Shown here: in pieces, positions 14,941 to 50,240 of the stretch
Layout of the letters: the number at the start of each line of letters is the position of its first letter
How positions within the stretch are numbered: position 1 is the stretch's first letter
NCBI RefSeq assembly: GCF_006345805.1
Contig: NC_042998.1
Span: 164,424,001 to 164,488,000 of the forward strand
Direction of reading: 5' to 3'
DNA length: 64,000 nt
Source: Octopus sinensis
Lineage: Eukaryota
Made by a program: the position numbers and the translations under genes
Notes under the pieces: model-generated
Told to the model about the DNA's origin: nothing
Databases searched by the model: none
What the model saw: only the letters and a program-made list of their open reading frames with translations

Positions 14941-15645
14941 GGTTTCAAATTTTGACACAAGGCCAGCACTTTGGCGGGAGAAGTTAAGTCGATTGCATCG
15001 ACCCCGGTGCTTAAACGGGGTACTTATTTTATCGAGCCCAAGGTAATGAAAGGCAAAGTCGACCTCAGCGGAGTTCGATGCTTACACTCATATTTTTGGG
15101 GAGGAGAACAGTCGATTAGATCGACCCCAGTATTTTACTGATACTTAATTTATTGACCCCGAAAATATGAAAGGCAAAGTCGACCTCGGCGGAATTTGAA
15201 CTCAGAACGTAAAGACAAACGAAATATCTATTTCATTACTACCCACAAGGGGCTAAACACAGAGAGGACAAACAAGGACAGACAAACGGATTAAGTCGAT
15301 TATATCGACCCCAGTGCGTAACTGGTACATATTTAATCGACCCCGATATATGAAAGGCAAAGTCGACCTCGGCGGAATTTGAACTCAGAACGTAGCAGCA
15401 GACGAAATACCTGTTTGTTTATTACCCACAAGGGCCTAAACATAGAGGGGACAAACAAGGACAGACAAACGGATTAAGTCGATTACATCGACCCCAGTGT
15501 GTAACTGGTACTTAATTTATCGATCCCTAAAGGAGGAAAGACAAAGTCGACCTCGGCAGAATTTGAACTCAGAACGTAGCAGCAGACGAAATATCGCTAA
15601 GCATTTCGCCCGGCGCGCTAACGTTTCGGCCAGCTCGCCGCCTTA
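14941..15645 (-). mobile_element. SINE family A cluster: a 5'-truncated copy plus a trimer, with shared TSD motif
   Basis: Four cores. TACACTCATATT occurs at 14929, 15083 and 15648. Confidence 0.9.
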
Positions 15646-15953
15646 CTTACACTCATATTCTGACACAAATACTACGAAAGCATAGATACATAGAAACACA
15701 CACACACAAATATATTCACTCATATGAAATAAAAAGCAAAAGCTGACCTTGGCGGAATTTGAACTTAGAACGTAGTAAGCCGTAAAACTTTTTCTCCGAT
15801 GCGGGGGCCTCCAACAGTCTCAGACTAAATATCAACTTTTAAAAAAATGGAAACAATGGTTATGCGATGCCACAGTACATTATACGACTTGATATCGAAT
15901 GTCCCCATGCATTACAGTTCTACTTGGTCACATTTTTTATGAAACCAACGATC

Positions 15954-16016
<63 letters not shown>

Positions 16017-16018
16017 TA

Positions 16019-16054
<36 letters not shown>

Positions 16055-16064
<10 letters not shown>

Positions 16065-19000
16065 TATTAAGGGCTAAAGAGGGTTATTCTAAAGCCAAAT
16101 ACACTGTTTTATCCACTTATAATCCGCTTGTTACAGGAAAATTGAAACTGAAAACGGGCAACTACCTTTAAAAATTTAAATTTCGTTATCTCTATATTGA
16201 ATCAATTTCGGACTTATCTTATAAAAAAAGATATATTCCTTCTTCAGTAGAAATTTCGATGGGATATAAATAAAATACTCACGTATGATCATGGAAAAAG
16301 CACAAGCTAAAAACATAACTACACTTGAGTACATCATTTTATCTAAAAATAAAATTTCTTTGGTCAGCCTCAGAAAACAACGTCCAGACCTTTCGCGCGC
16401 GCTACAAATTGTAATGGTTACCAGTCCTCCTGTAGCAAGCATCGAGTTTACTACTAAGCAATATAGGATGAAGTCCCTTACTCTACAGCAAAGGAATTCA
16501 TCAGGAAGCGTGGGCAGTATATTTAAAAAAAACCGTTACGGTTGCAATATACATCATATAATTAAGGGCTAAAGAGGGTTATTCTAAAGCCAAATACACT
16601 TTTTTATCCACTTATAATCCGCTGGTTACAGGAAAATTGAACTGAAAACGGGCAACTAACCTTTAGAAAATTTAAATTTCGTTATCTCTATATTGAATCA
16701 TTTCGGACTTAATCTTATAAAAAAAGATATATTCCTTCTTCAGTAGAAATTTCGATGGGATATAAATAAAATACTCACGTATGATCATGGAAAAAGCACA
16801 AGCTAAAACCATAACTACACTTGAGTACATCATTTATATCTAAAAATAAAAATTCTTTGGTCAGCCTCAGAAAACAACGTCCAGACCTTTCGCCGCTACA
16901 AATTGTAATGGTTACCAGTCATCCTGTAGCAAGCATCGAGTTTACTACTAAGCAATATAGGATGAAGTCCCTTACTCTACAGCAAAGGAATTCATCAGGA
17001 AGCGTGGGCAGTATATTTAAAAAAAACCGTTACGGTTGCAATATACATCATAATAATTAAGGGCTAAAGAGGGTTATTCTAAAGCCAAATACACTGTTTT
17101 ATCCACTTAAATCCGCTTGTTACAGGAAAATTGAAACTGAAAACGGCAACTAACCTTTAGAAAATTTAAATTTCGTTATCTCTATATTGAATCAATTTCG
17201 GACTTAATCTTATAAAAAAAGATATATTCCTTCTTCAGTAGAAATTTCGATGGGATATAAATAAAATACTCACGTATGATCATGGAAAAAGCACAAGCTA
17301 AAAACATAACTACACTTGAGTACATCATTTATATCTAAAAATAAAAATTCTTTGGTCAGCCTCAGAAAACAACGTCCAGACCTTTCGCCGCTACAAATTG
17401 TAATGGTTACCAGTCCTCCTGTAGCAAGCATCGAGTTACTACTAAGCAATATAGGATGAAGTCCCTTACTCTACAGCAAAGGAATTCATCAGAAGCGTGG
17501 GCAGTATATTTAAAAAAAACCGTTACGGTTGCAATATACATCATATAATTAAGGGCTAAAGAGGGTTATTCTAAAGCCCAATACACTGTTTTATCCACTT
17601 ATAATCCGCTTGTTACAGGAAAATTGAAACTGAAAACGGGCAACTAACCTTTAGAAAATTAAATTTCGTTATCTCTATATTGAATCAATTTCGGACTTAA
17701 TCTTATAAAAAAGATATATTCCTTCTTCAGTAGAAATTTCGATGGGATATAAATAAAATACTCACATGATCATGGAAAAAGCACAAGCTAAAAACATAAC
17801 TACACTTGAGTACATCATTTATATCTAAAAAAAAAATTCTTTGGTCAGCCTCAGAAAACAACGTCCAGACCTTTCGCCGCTACAAATTGTAATGGTTACC
17901 AGTCCTCCTGTAGCAAGCATCGAGTTTACTACTAAGCAATATAGGATGAAGTCCCTTACTCTACAGCAAAGGAATTCATCAGGAAGCGTGGGCAGTATAT
18001 TTAAAAAAAACCGTTACGGTTGCAATATACATCATATAATTAGGGCTAAAGAGGGTTATTCTAAAGCCAAATACACTGTTTTATCCACTTATAATCCGCG
18101 GATTATAACAAGCGGATTATAAGTGGATAAAACAGTGTATTTGGCTTTAGAATAACCCTCTTTAGCCCTTAATTATATGATGTATATTGCAACCGTAACG
18201 GTTTTTTTAAATATACTGCCCACGCTTCCTGATGAATTCCTTTGCTGTAGAGTAAGGGACTTCATCCTATATTGCTTAGTAGTAAACTCGATGCTTGCTA
18301 CAGGAGGACTGGTAACCATTACAATTTGTAGCGGCGAAAGGTCTGGACGTTGTTTTCTGAGGCTGACCAAAGAATTTTTATTTTTAGATATAAATGATGT
18401 ACTCAAGTGTAGTTATGTTTTTAGCTTGTGCTTTTTCCATGATCATACGTGAGTATTTTATTTATATCCCATCGAAATTTCTACTGAAGAAGGAATATAT
18501 CTTTTTTTATAAGATTAAGTCCGAAATTGATTCAATATAGAGATAACGAATTTAAATTTTCTAAGGTTAGTTGCCCGTTTTCAGTTTCAATTTTCCTGTA
18601 ACAAGCGGATTATAAGTGGATAAAACAGTGTATTTGGCTTTAGAATAACCCTCTTTAGCCCTTAATTATATGATGTATATTGCAACCGTAACGGTTTTTT
18701 TAAATATACTGCCCACGCTTCCTGATGAATCTTTGCTGTAGAGTAAGGGACTTCATCCTATATTGCTTAGTAGTAAACTCGATGCTTGCTACAGGAGGAC
18801 TGGTAACCATTACAATTTGTAGCGGCGAAAGGTCTGGACGTTGTTTTCTGAGGCTGACCAAAGAATTTTTATTTTTAGATAAATGATGTACTCAAGTGTA
18901 GTTATGTTTTTAGCTTGTGCTTTTTCCATGATCATACGTGAGTATTTTATTTATATCCCATCGAAATTTCTACTGAAGAAGGAATATATCTTTTTTTATA

Positions 19001-20250
19001 AGATTAAGTCGAAATTGATTCAATATAGAGTAACGAAATTTAAATTTTCTAAAGGTTAGTTGCCCGTTTTCAGTTTCAATTTTCCTGTAACAAGCGGATT
19101 ATAAGTGGATAAAACAGTGTATTTGGCTTTAGAATAACCCTCTTTAGCCCTTAATTATATGATGTATATTGCAACCGTAACGGTTTTTTTAAATATACTG
19201 CCCACGCTTCCTGATGAATTCCTTTGCTGTAGAGTAAGGGACTTCATCCTATATTGCTTAGTAGTAAACTCGATGCTTGCTACAGGAGGACTGGTAACCA
19301 TTACAATTGTAGCGGCGAAAGGTCTGGACGTTGTTTTCTGAGGCTGACCAAAGAATTTTTATTTTTAGATATAAATGATGTACTCAAGTGTAGTTATGTT
19401 TTTAGCTTGTGCTTTTTCCATGATCATACGTGAGTATTTTATTTATATCCCATCGAAATTTCTACTGAAGAAGGAATATATCTTTTTTTATAAGATTAAG
19501 TCCGAAATTGATTCAATATAGAGATAACGAAATTTAAATTTTCTAAAGGTTAGTTGCCCGTTTTCAGTTTCAATTTTCCTGTAACAAGCGGATTATAAGT
19601 GGATAAAACAGTGTATTTGGCTTTAGAATAACCCTCTTTAGCCCTTAATTATATGATGTATATTGCAACCGTAACGGTTTTTTTTAAATATACTGCCCAC
19701 GCTTCCTGATGAATTCCTTTGCTGTAGAGTAAGGGACTTCATCCTATATTGCTTAGTAGTAAACTCGATGCTTGCTACAGGAGGACTGGTAACCATTACA
19801 ATTTGTAGCGGCGAAAGGTCTGGACGTTGTTTTCTGAGGCTGACCAAAGAATTTTTATTTTTAGATATAAATGATGTACTCAAGTGTAGTTATGTTTTTA
19901 GCTTGTGCTTTTTCCATGATCATACGTGAGTATTTTATTTATATCCCATCGAAATTTCTACTGAAGAAGGAATATATCTTTTTTTTATAAGATTAAGTCC
20001 GAAATTGATTCAATATAGAGATACGAAATTTAAATTTTCTAAAGGTTAGTTGCCCGTTTTCAGTTTCAATTTTCCTGTAACAAGCGGATTATAAGTGGAT
20101 AAAACGTGTATTTGGCTTTAGAATAACCCTCTTTAGCCCTTAATTATATGATGTATATTGCAACCGTAACGGTTTTTTTAAATATACTGCCCCGCTTCCT
20201 GATGAATTCCTTTGCTGTAGAGTAAGGGACTTCATCCTATATTGCTTAGT
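16055..20250. repeat. Palindromic tandem array of a ~495-bp unit (~4.1 forward and ~4.3 inverted copies), embedded in (TA)n
   Basis: GGGCTAAAG recurs at 16071, 16566, 17061, 17553 and 18043. Its reverse complement (AGCCC) recurs at 18164, 18657, 19146, 19640 and 20135. The inversion point is at ~18089-18108. Confidence 0.97.
18394..18448 (+). CDS. Putative signal-peptide exon (MMYSSVVMFLACAFSMII, phase-1 end) within the array unit; one of 8 copies
   Basis: CTGAC branch-like motif, then TTTTTATTTTTAG acceptor (exon starts 18388), ATG at 18394, and AC|GTGAGT donor at 18448/18449. The peptide is hydrophobic. Other + exons are at 18879-18937, 19369-19429 and 19865-19925; mirror copies lie on the minus strand (e.g. 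16283-16342). No downstream exon was identified. Confidence 0.45.
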
Positions 20251-20483
20251 ATATATATAATATATATATATATATAATATATATATATATATATGTATAT
20301 ATATATGATCTTTATCTTATATTACTCTTTATATACTCTTTATATTATATTATATACTCTTTATCTTATATTAAACTTTTAATACTTTTTGATACTTTAA
20401 AATTTTTTTTTAAATTAAATTTAAAAAAAAATTTTTAATTAAAAAATAAATAGATAAATAAATAAATAAAATAATAATAATAT

Positions 20484-20519
<36 letters not shown>

Positions 20520-20744
20520 TTAAAATTTACAAGTTTAATTTATTAATTTAAATAATTTTTTAAAATTTTAACTTTAATTTAATATTTTAATTGAATTTTA
20601 TATTTTATATTTTATATTTTTTATATTTTTTAATTCATTTTATTCTATGTATTGCTTATGATTTTCACTGTTTGATTTGCCTAATAGTGGTTTTATCTCT
20701 AATTTAATATAATATATATATATATATATATATATCTTCTTATC

Positions 20745-47399: not shown

Positions 47400-50240
47400 T
47401 CATTACAAATTAGTAGTGTTGTGTCGTTGTGAGAAATCTAAAATATTATTCTATTTCTTACAATGAGCGTTGAAATATTTACACGATTAACAACGTTAAC
47501 TATGGAAGGAAATTGAGGACAATCGAAATTTTTGACATAATGAGACAAATGCAATTGTTAAATGTGGACCGGTGTTAACTGTGGAAGCAACTGGATGATA
47601 CAATTGAAATGTTTAACATTGAAAGACAAACAATTGTTAATTGATAAACGACGGAAGGTAACTATGGAAGGAATTTGAAGACACAATAGAAAATTTTCAT
47701 ATAAGACAGGTGCAAATCTAACGTTAAACAGCGGTAACTATAGAAGGAATTCGAAAGCATAATTAAAATCTTTAACGTTATAAGATAATTGCAATTGTTA
47801 CGTGTTGGAAAATGGGTTGATTAAATTGGTTAGGGCTGTGACCATTTAAGAAATCTAAGATATTAGTCTACTTGTTACAACGAGTGCTGAAATATTTCGC
47901 GTTTAACGACATTAACTATGGAAGGAATTGGAAGACACAACAGAAATCTTTTACATAATGTGACAGGTACAATTGTAACATGTTAAGCAGCGGTAACTAT
48001 GGAAGGAAATCGAAGACATAATTGAAATCTTTTACATAATGAGACAGGTACAATTGTAACATGTTAAACAGCTGTAACTATGGAAGGAAATCAAAGACAT
48101 AATTGAAATCTTTTACATAATGAGACAGGTACAATTGTAACATGTTAAGCAGCTGTAACTATGGAAGGAAATCGAAGACATAATTGAAATCTTTTACATA
48201 ATGAGACAGGTACAATTGTAACATGTTAAGCATCGGTAACTATGGAAGGAAATCGAAAACATAATTGAAATCTTTTACATAATGAGACAGGTACAATTGT
48301 AACATGTTAAGCATCGGTAACTATGGAAGGAAATCGAAGACATAATTGAAATCTTTTACATAATGAGACAGGTACAATTGTAACATGTTAAGCAGCGGTA
48401 ACTATGGAAGGAAATCGAAAACATAATTGAAATCTTTTACATAATGAGACAGGTACAATTGTAACATGTTAAGCAGCGGTAACTATGGAAGGAAATCTAA
48501 GACATAATTGAAATTTTTTACATAATGAGACAGGTACAATTGTAACATGTTAAGCAGCGGTAACTATGGAAGGAAATCGAAGACATAATTGAAATCTTTT
48601 ACATAATGAGACAGGTACAATTGTAACATGTTAAGCAGCGGTAACTATGGAAGGAAATCGAAGACATAATTGAAATCTTTTACATAATGAGACAGGTACA
48701 ATTGTAACATGTTAAGCAGCGGTAACTATGGAAGGAAATCGAAGACATAATTGAAATCTTTTACATAATGAGACAGGTACAATTGTAACAAGTTAAGCAG
48801 CGGTAACTATGGAAGGAAATCGAAGACATAATTGAAATCTTTTACATAATGAGACAGCTACAATTGTAACATATCAAGCATCGGTAACTATGGAAGGAAA
48901 TCTAAGACATAATCGAAATCTTTTACGTAATGAGACAGGTACAATTGTAACATGTTAAGCAGCGTATCTATGGAAGGAAATCGAAGACATAATTGAAATC
49001 TTTTACATAATGAGACAGCTACAATTGTAACATATCAAGCATCGGTAACTATGGAAGGAAATCTAAGACATAATCGAAATCTTTTACGTAATGAGACAGG
49101 TACAATTGTAACATGTTAAGCAGCGTATCTATGGAAGGAAATCGAAGACATAATTGAAATCTTTTACATAATGAGACAGGTACAATTATAACATGTTAAG
49201 CAGCGGTAACTATGGAAGGAAATCGAAGACATAATTGAAATCTTTTACATAATGAGACAGGTACAATTGTAACAAGTTAAGCAGCGGTAACTATGGAAGG
49301 AAATCGAAGACATAATTGAAATTTTTTACATAATGTGACAGGTACAATTGTAACAAGTTAAACAGTGTTGACTATGGAAGGAAATCGAAGACATAATTAA
49401 AATCTTTCATATAATGAGATAAATGCATTTGTTACGTGAAGGGAGTGATTAAATTGGTTAGTGCTTTGTCAATGTAAGAAATCTAATATATTATTCTACT
49501 TGTTACAACGAGTACTGAAATATCGCACGTTTATGAACGTTAACTATGGAAGGAAATAGAGGACAATAGAAATATTTGACATAATGAGACGAATGTGATT
49601 GTTAAATGTGAATCAACGTTAACTATGGAAGTAACTAGGAGATGCAATTGAAATATTCAACATAGTGAGACAAGTGCAATTGTTACGTGTTAAACAGCTA
49701 TAACTATGGAAGGAATTTGAAGACACAATTGAAATCTTTTACATAATAAGACAAGTACAATTCCAACATGTTAAGCAGCATTAACTATAGAAGGAACTCG
49801 AAGATATAATTAAAACCTTTAATTTAATAATATACGTGTCACGTGTTGCCAAAGAGGTTGATATACGCTCTTTTCACTACAAATTCGTAATGTTGTGTCA
49901 ATGTAAGAAATCTAAAATATTTTTTTATATGCTGAAGTGTCACGTGCTTAACAACATTATCTATGAACGGCAATCGAAGACTTTAACATAAGGAGACAAA
50001 TGCAATGTGAAACAGCGTTAACTATGGAAGAAATTCGAAGACACAATCGAATTTTTTTTTACAGAATGTGACAGGTAAAATTCTAGTATGTTAAGCAGCG
50101 TTAACTACCGAAGGAGCTCGAAGATATAATTAAAATCTTTAGCTTATAAGATAAGTGCAATTTTTACGTGTTAAACAAGGCTAACTATGGAAGGAAATAA
50201 GAGACATAATGAATATCTTTAACATAATGAAACACAGTTA
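47400..50240. repeat. 81-bp minisatellite with a homogeneous core (~47915-49410, ~18 copies) and diverged flanks
   Basis: Unit AACTATGGAAGGAAATCGAAGACATAATTGAAATCTTTTACATAATGAGACAGGTACAATTGTAACATGTTAAGCAGCGGT. The period is 81 (e.g. 48001 to 48082), and all six frames contain stops. Confidence 0.95.

What the first reader, a model, noticed from the sequence alone, without database searches (positions are those of the whole stretch)
16055..20250. 4.2-kb palindromic array of a 495-bp unit inserted into a (TA)n tract
Seen: ~4.1 head-to-tail copies, one orientation switch, then ~4.3 inverted copies. Copies differ almost only by 1-bp indels, and both ends run into (TA)n. The arms are not exact mirrors: the right arm continues ~100 bp beyond the point where the left arm begins, and indels are not mirrored. 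That argues against a simple fold-back read artefact. The unit resembles no transposon I recognise. Inference: rolling-circle amplification of a small circular DNA with one template switch, followed by integration, or a very young satellite with an inversion.
Basis: partly seen in the sequence, partly recalled or inferred. Interest (0 to 1): 0.75.

Follow-up and report, generated by a model that had tools for sequence, protein, structure and literature searches.

The report
Two-armed hammerhead retrozyme insertion
This mirror-image repeat is one of about 200 young, scattered insertions of a 496-base non-coding unit that carries a predicted self-cutting RNA motif, and its two back-to-back arms, each ending at its own fixed point in a TA repeat, likely record a borrowed Penelope-type retrotransposon enzyme copying one probably circular RNA from both sides of a DNA cut.

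Summary
The palindromic array is really in the sequence, but it is neither unique nor a satellite. It is one insertion of a young dispersed family (at least 186 exact end-junctions genome-wide). Every unit carries a type I hammerhead motif (1 of 20,000 shuffles match; compensatory changes in sister families), so it fits the animal non-LTR retrozymes. Of 111 insertions examined, 58 are two-armed. All 58 are head-to-head, 52 pair end A (unit 139-145) with end B (about 231-243), and none pairs like with like. Arms read through the ribozyme cut site (306 of 310 approaches), and each array is mostly a clone of one monomer haplotype, which favours a circular RNA template. In 8 of 52 cases, this one included, both arms stop at the same template point (1.8 expected), suggesting coupled enzymes. 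An intact (TA)n-targeting Penelope-like element is present, but no partner sharing sequence was found. Cleavage, expression and this locus's junction are unverified. The scan noted this kind of element and the two-end rule before, in this genome and others.

The parts
15954..16057 (.). Left (TA)n target tract
16053..18099 (-). Left arm, 4.15 copies; RNA-sense reads outwards (leftwards); outer end = family end A (unit 140-145, last unit-specific base at 16058); inner end unit 70
18089..18108 (.). Centre junction: perfect 20-bp palindrome. The left arm continues through a 2-nt self-complementary overlap into an 11-nt copy of unit 70-80, which joins the right arm over a 3-nt overlap (unit 64-66)
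   Evidence: sequence; reading as a templated end-join is inference
18106..20251 (+). Right arm, 4.36 copies; inner end unit 64; outer end = family end B (unit 238-240)
19458..19525 (+). Predicted type I hammerhead, example copy (7-bp helix I, core with one extra nucleotide between 9 and 10.1, G10.1-C11.1, palindromic helix III; predicted cut between 19518 and 19519). Further copies: + 18477-18545, 18966-19033, 19954-20023; - 16187-16254, 17177-17245, 17670-17737, and one near 16726-16746 with a 1-bp deletion in helix III
20250..20306 (.). Right (TA)n target tract

Best explanation
This is one insertion of a young, protein-free, dispersed 496-bp repeat with a predicted type I hammerhead ribozyme in each unit (a non-LTR retrozyme), likely pasted into (TA)n by the reverse transcriptase and GIY-YIG endonuclease of a Penelope-like element that copied one probably circular RNA from both cut DNA strands. 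Steps: (1) tandem units would be transcribed, cut by the hammerhead (probably as a dimer, given the palindromic helix III) and ligated to a 496-nt circle [inferred from the family; not shown here]; (2) both strands of a (TA)n tract are nicked and each 3' end primes reverse transcription inside the RNA, one at site A (unit 139-145) and one at site B (231-243) [ends and polarity shown; enzyme inferred]; (3) each enzyme runs round the template a variable number of times, here about 4 [clonal arrays and read-through shown; circularity inferred]; (4) the two cDNA ends are joined by short microhomology, here with an 11-nt templated insert, giving a head-to-head palindrome [junction sequence shown; repair pathway inferred]. 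In this copy both arms stopped within 6 nt of the same template position, which suggests the two enzymes moved as a coupled pair [inferred].
For: Dispersed young family: 235 unit matches at 40 scored places of 806 candidates; the 150 listed are 96-100% identical; 186 exact A-end junctions and 328 exact hammerhead 21-mers genome-wide. Hammerhead: 1 descriptor hit in the unit, on the outward-reading strand only; 1 of 20,000 shuffles has any hit and 0 are as good. Sense circle folds at z -4.8. Among 13 aligned family members, 10 of 18 pairs change on both sides and 91.9% of cells pair. One sister copy was found by a different region and has the intact core. Extra nucleotide between 9 and 10.1, G10.1-C11.1 and palindromic helix III are the marks listed for Penelope-type hammerheads in PMC4209133. 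Anatomy: 58 of 58 two-armed insertions head-to-head; 52 A+B, 2 A+185, 4 B+other, 0 A+A, 0 B+B; single-armed 47 A and 6 B. Sets not selected on the partner end agree: 15 of 15 from the end-blind set (13 A+B, 2 A+185); of 42 A-end hits on contigs 1-3, 20 are two-armed with 19 B partners. The same two ends recur in sisters 76-90% identical. Template: 306 read-throughs and 4 stops in 310 approaches to the cut site, 5.5 stops expected; exact junction 12-mer in 192 of 203 passes; variants fixed in all passes and in both arms, e.g. L044 8/8, L048 5/5, L047 10/10. Coupling: 8 of 52 stop within 15 nt, permutation mean 1.8, P=0.0003. Enzyme available: young intact 781-aa RT+GIY-YIG element whose 3' end abuts (TA)n. 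A purified Penelope-like protein cuts and extends both strands and starts at two internal RNA sites (PMC11167929).
Against: No autonomous partner sharing sequence with the unit was found: no Penelope ORF within 1.5 kb upstream of 40 sister-hammerhead loci, and the only unit-like hit in 50 GIY-YIG loci was an old sister copy carried along in a flank. In the 781-aa family the inverted pieces seen (L077, L080, L090) end at internal sites, not at its second 3' end, so it may not be the partner. Rfam found no hammerhead at E<=10. A variant in about half the passes (437G, 111 of 201) leaves a mismatch in helix I, and an 8/8 variant in L038 breaks a helix II pair. The covariation set was mostly picked by a pattern containing the core, so core invariance there is circular, and related sequences inflate the shuffle test. 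In vitro, hammerhead cleavage was dispensable and uncut RNA was the main substrate for the anole element, and 8 of 9 Xenopus retrozymes did not cleave. The matched stops fit run-off from a linear RNA as well as coupling on a circle. Several variants first taken as private are shared sub-lineage marks, and some variants are present in only part of an array (L032/33, L045, L209, L210, L212).
Confidence: 0.7

Rival explanations
1. Same element, enzyme and two-site priming, but the template is a linear, uncut multimeric transcript of an existing array; matched stops are run-off at its 5' end.
For: Uncut RNA was the main substrate in vitro for a Penelope-like protein. No discontinuity at the cut site is expected either way. 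8 of 52 matched stops. Some haplotypes are shared between arrays (202G+471T, 66G+195T).
Against: Long arrays fixed for variants seen in no other of the 111 insertions (L047, 9 copies; L209, 7.6 copies; L044; L048) need a one-monomer bottleneck followed by re-reading. The longest arm (about 17.5 copies) would need a longer source array, and none was seen in the sample. The sample is not a full census, and source arrays may be unassembled or in other individuals.
Confidence: 0.17
2. DNA-level origin: rolling-circle copying of a small extrachromosomal DNA circle with one template switch, then integration, or local tandem amplification of an inserted monomer by unequal crossover (model in bioRxiv 10.64898/2026.07.22.740005).
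For: Clonal arrays are expected from any single-monomer amplification; the tandem-growth model is argued in print.
Against: Neither model predicts constant head-to-head polarity (58 of 58), two fixed and mutually exclusive outer ends, free inner ends, variants shared across oppositely oriented arms of different phase, or a conserved ribozyme fold.
Confidence: 0.06
3. One arm is a fold-back (snap-back) DNA copy of the other, made in the cell after B-primed first-strand synthesis, and ends at A by TA microhomology.
For: The centre is mirror-symmetric within 6 nt here and within 15 nt in 8 of 52; site A is TA-like in this family.
Against: 44 of 52 are not symmetric, and in many the A arm is the longer one. 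A zero-loop 20-bp palindrome plus a second 3-nt join is more simply explained by two separate ends annealing. Sister family copies end at A where the TA likeness is weak (L103, L104).
Confidence: 0.04
4. The family is real but this particular palindrome is a long-read chimera or misassembly.
For: Near-mirror centre; many singleton 1-bp deletions typical of uncorrected long-read consensus (inference); junction not confirmed in any independent run.
Against: A fold-back read would repeat end A and the left flank. The right end is instead the recurrent family end B, the flanks are different unique sequences, and errors are not mirrored.
Confidence: 0.03

Closest known systems
Animal non-LTR retrozymes (Cervera and de la Pena 2020, PMC7229834, passages and Discussion read; Li, Clavereau and Pollet 2026, bioRxiv 10.64898/2026.07.22.740005, parts 1-3 of 5 read)
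   Same: Short non-coding tandem units, low GC (33%), one type I hammerhead per unit, dispersed, found alongside Penelope-like elements; DNA-primed reverse transcription of a circle was proposed for them.
   Different: The 496-nt unit is longer than the ~300-nt typical monomer but inside the 51-972 range of Li et al. The text read describes no insertion ends, inverted arms or (TA)n targets (0 hits for 'inverted', 'microsatellite', 'target site' in PMC7229834). No pLTR homologue was found here, unlike 21 of 57 Xenopus families. Supplements (e.g. Fig. S9) not seen.
EN+ Penelope-like elements (Craig et al. 2021, PMC8557442, passages; Frangieh et al. 2024, PMC11167929, parts 1-2 of 4; Cervera and de la Pena 2014, PMC4209133, passages)
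   Same: 5' truncation, partial tandems, an inverted 5'-truncated copy, (TA)n preference, an optional 'tail' between two start sites, both strands cut and extended, predicted protein dimer, hammerhead with extra nucleotide and palindromic helix III.
   Different: No ORF. The two ends are about 95 nt apart rather than 30-40. Here the two sites are split one per arm, whereas the in vitro work reported no difference of start site between strands. Ends fall at short TA matches to the target, whereas the anole start site lacked homology.
L1 twin priming (recalled, no call)
   Same: Two target-primed cDNAs on one RNA give a head-to-head inversion joined by microhomology.
   Different: No poly(A) tail, the second site is fixed rather than random, both arms are multi-copy, and target-site duplications are mostly unreadable in (TA)n.

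Membership tests
Non-LTR retrozyme | Tandem repeats of a short non-coding, low-GC unit | tested here: met
   496-bp unit, GC 0.32-0.34, longest stop-to-stop frame 119 aa
Non-LTR retrozyme | Type I hammerhead motif in consecutive units | tested here: met
   Core 21-mer in 8 of 8 units, whole motif matched in 7 of 8; shuffle test; covariation. Rfam gave no hit.
Non-LTR retrozyme | Dispersed, mobile copies | tested here: met
   186 exact A-end junctions genome-wide; matches on most large contigs
Non-LTR retrozyme | Self-cleavage of the RNA | not testable with these tools
   Needs an in vitro assay
Non-LTR retrozyme | Expression as monomeric circular RNA | tested here: inconclusive
   No holder on record as RNA; only contigs available
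Non-LTR retrozyme | Co-occurrence with an autonomous Penelope-like element | tested here: met
   Intact 781-aa RT + GIY-YIG frames in several copies
Non-LTR retrozyme | Homology to the pLTR of an autonomous Penelope-like element (Li et al. 2026; found for only part of their families) | tested here: inconclusive
   None in 50 GIY-YIG loci or upstream of 40 sister loci, a small part of 5029 GIY-YIG candidates
Penelope-like insertion footprint | Fixed 3' end, variable 5' truncation, inverted 5' copy, two alternative 3' ends, microsatellite target | tested here: met
Autonomous Penelope-like element | Encodes RT and GIY-YIG endonuclease | tested here: not met
   No ORF in the unit; no tblastn hit of the 781-aa protein in the window
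Satellite DNA | Long head-to-tail arrays at few loci | tested here: not met
   Median arm 0.69 copies, longest about 17.5, about 200 dispersed sites; collapsed unassembled arrays cannot be excluded
Foldback / terminal-inverted-repeat DNA transposon | Identical termini at both ends | tested here: not met
   0 of 58 two-armed insertions have like ends; 53 of 111 have a single arm

The most novel reading that the evidence does not exclude
A Penelope-type protein dimer engages one 496-nt hammerhead RNA circle asymmetrically, one subunit at site A and one at site B, each primed from an opposite strand of the cut (TA)n. The pair rolls round the circle together and often stops together. The genomic arrays are then a direct record of rolling-circle, double-primed retrotransposition, and they explain the 'tail' and the inverted pseudo-LTR of Penelope elements as two outcomes of one mechanism.
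Probability: 0.4. Interest if true: 0.75.

Novelty: new member of a known kind. Interest (0 to 1): 0.52.

Why it matters
How Penelope-like elements form their tandem and inverted insertions is described in print as still undefined (PMC8557442), and how animal retrozymes become tandem arrays is disputed: reverse transcription of a circle (PMC7229834) versus local amplification after insertion (bioRxiv 2026). This young family gives countable footprints that separate the models: constant polarity, one arm per start site, read-through of the ribozyme site, clonal arrays and matched stops. It also supplies a short defined RNA with two mapped start sites for an in vitro test. The element itself is an ordinary member of a known class. 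Six literature searches (open-licence library only) found no paper on the one-arm-per-site rule or on retrozymes in octopus.

Tried and rejected
Rfam: only hairpin-like matches below gathering score at the palindrome centre, no hammerhead. Sequencing runs: the unit is held by 20 of 24 listed runs from 8 studies under 6 organism codes; no RNA holder listed. Two runs guessed to be RNA hold the whole monomer as one closed contig, but tandem DNA gives the same, so this was not used as evidence. The window's centre junction was not covered in 4 of 4 other runs laid; these are contigs, probably of other individuals, so no verdict. Search for the autonomous partner failed; one Pfam accession tried from recall was not in the library. 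A second CUGAUGA in the unit (about position 188) gave no descriptor hit. The mirrored GATC(AT)n in the two flanks is a 15-nt match, ninth longest among the insertions scored, so it was treated as chance. Target-site duplications could not be read reliably in (TA)n; a few candidates only (L022, L210). Sites A and B lie at predicted small hairpins, but pair probabilities are only 0.3-0.6 and sister families keep them unevenly, so this is weak. A stop excess at the ribozyme site, expected for a linear monomer template, was not found. No empty orthologous site could be checked: no related genome is held. The sequence look-up in earlier scan notes returned nothing.

Full report
Observation. The array is as described: 4.15 copies at 16053-18099 and 4.36 inverted copies at 18106-20251, unit 496 bp, (TA)n on both sides. 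Among the 8 full copies there are 30 deleted, 5 inserted and 9 substituted columns against their consensus, none mirrored between the arms. The singleton deletions look like long-read consensus errors (inference).

It is a family. The unit matched 235 times at the 40 places scored of 806 candidates in the own genome; the 150 matches listed are 96-100% identical. Exact patterns gave 186 junctions of one end with (TA)n, 328 copies of a hammerhead 21-mer, and 117 overlapping matches at roughly 50 places for a second end (lower bounds, including a few assembly duplicates and older sub-lineage copies). The unit is also held by 20 of 24 listed sequencing runs from 8 studies, so it is not an assembly product.

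Hammerhead. Numbering below starts after the predicted cut (window 19519). On the strand that reads outwards in each arm there is a type I motif: 7-bp helix I, core, one extra A, G10.1-C11.1, a two-part helix II, GAAA, and a helix III that is a palindrome round one U. My descriptor hits the unit once, on this strand only; 1 of 20,000 dinucleotide shuffles has any hit and none is as good. Rfam does not detect it. The circular sense RNA folds at z -4.8, against -2.4 for antisense. In the monomer, helices I and II form (P 0.7-0.9) and helix III does not (0.02), as expected for a dimer-type motif. Sister families 58-90% identical keep the motif. In 13 aligned members 91.9% of cells pair and 10 of 18 pairs change on both sides, while slid controls give at most 47.5%. 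Caveat: the patterns contained the core, and relatives inflate the shuffle control. One sister was found independently through unit 330-424 and has the intact core. The extra nucleotide, G10.1-C11.1 and palindromic helix III are named marks of Penelope-associated hammerheads (PMC4209133, passages). Cleavage is predicted, not shown.

Insertion anatomy. I mapped 111 insertions from four sets: the window plus 40 stretches chosen for full units, 37 chosen on end B, 31 further A-end hits from contigs 1-3, and 5 from the hammerhead list. Dropped: two duplicate loci (L015, L043), a duplicated copy in L151 and a 14-nt piece in L146; L032 and L033 were merged by hand at about 17.5 copies. Three mini-arms of about 12-14 nt seen by eye (L017, L034, L201) were counted as single-armed by the script. 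Result: 58 two-armed, all head-to-head; 52 with ends A+B, 2 with A+185, 4 with B+another site, none A+A or B+B; of 53 single-armed, 47 end at A and 6 at B. Because sets were chosen on one end, the fair tests are these: the end-blind set, 13 A+B and 2 A+185 of 15; the 42 A-end hits on contigs 1-3, 20 two-armed with 19 B, 1 at 185 and no A partner (L201 included by eye); the 37 B-chosen, 28 with A, 3 other, 6 single. Inner ends are spread round the unit. Sisters use the same two ends. The window is an A+B case, which explains the ~95-nt overhang.

Template. Arms cross the predicted cut 306 times and stop there 4 times in 310 approaches (5.5 expected), and the junction 12-mer is exact in 192 of 203 passes, above the median. 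So the template was continuous there: a circle or an uncut multimer. Arrays are largely clonal. Two sub-lineage marks (353G, 437G) are nearly all-or-none per array, and variants such as 188T (L044, 8/8, both arms), 90G (L048, 5/5, both arms) and 105C (L047, 10/10) are fixed. Some such variants proved shared between arrays, and a few are partial. Long arrays fixed for a variant seen nowhere else in the sample favour repeated reading of one monomer, but the sample is not a census.

Centre. In unrolled coordinates the window's arms stop at -1914 and -1920; 8 of 52 A+B insertions stop within 15 nt of each other against 1.8 by permutation (P=0.0003), and arm lengths correlate (rho 0.39, 58 pairs). 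35 of 58 centres show overlap of at least 1 nt by BLAST ends, 6 are blunt and 17 carry inserts. Here the left end runs through a self-complementary GC into 11 nt copied from the partner strand, then rejoins over TAA. This reads as two separate cDNA ends joined by microhomology with a templated insert (inference; polymerase-theta-type joining is recalled). Matched stops suggest coupled enzymes on one template, or run-off from a linear RNA.

Enzyme. The genome has 5029 GIY-YIG candidates (150 scored) and a young family with intact 781-aa RT + C-terminal GIY-YIG frames, a Cx4CxxC linker like that described for Neptune/Nematis (clade not tested), 3' ends in (TA)n and an optional tail of about 50 nt. 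It shares no sequence with the unit, and its inverted pieces did not end at the tail, so it is a candidate only. In vitro, a Penelope-like protein cut and extended both strands, started at two internal sites and did not need hammerhead cleavage (PMC11167929, parts 1-2 of 4). The first two points support the model; the last supports the linear rival.

Comparison and verdict. The element meets the sequence-level tests for an animal non-LTR retrozyme and shows the Penelope insertion footprint (PMC8557442, passages). It fails the tests for autonomous Penelope element, satellite and foldback transposon. Expression, cleavage, the partner and this locus's junction remain open. Six searches of the open-licence library found no description of the one-arm-per-site rule; supplements of the cited papers were not seen. 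Earlier notes of this scan report the same kind of element and the two-end rule in this genome and others. My retrozyme and twin-priming reading was written before those look-ups; the strict one-A-one-B count was made after and tested on my own data. New member of a known kind, with a useful mechanistic footprint; interest 0.52.

Noticed in passing
window 15110-15780: A 183-bp tandem (2.6 copies) plus partial copies; the left-flank query hits 73 fetched loci, so it is a common dispersed, possibly SINE-like repeat.
   Followed up: partly
window 20310-20710: Very AT-rich stretch that resembles a repeat in L081 and ends in a motif also seen abutting (TA)n in L081 and, inverted on both sides, in L142: probably another (TA)n-inserting element.
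   Followed up: partly
window 47913-49820: 81-bp tandem array, 23.5 copies, 87% matches, with an older 83-bp relative at 47497-47692.
   Followed up: no
L081 484-2153 and 6417-8091 (G000:C1:207.47 Mb): A Penelope-like element with 479-aa and 781-aa frames lies between 1.67-kb direct repeats (99.3%) that include its 3' end plus flanking DNA holding an old sister retrozyme: apparent 3' transduction.
   Followed up: partly
L101-L140: At least four older lineages of the same hammerhead unit (58-90% identical; periods about 470-493 where tandem) use the same ends, so the lineage has been mobile in several waves.
   Followed up: partly
L014 and L015 (G000:C4:10-12 kb and 85.7-87.8 kb): The same insertion with the same flanks appears as mirror images near the start of contig 4: a large inverted duplication or assembly fold-back.
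   Followed up: no
L157 1083-1247: 165 bp of unrelated sequence sits between the two arms of one insertion.
   Followed up: no
L054, L083, L084, L087, L100: Several other, unrelated type I hammerhead motifs lie near GIY-YIG loci, one as a head-to-head pair 500 bp apart.
   Followed up: no
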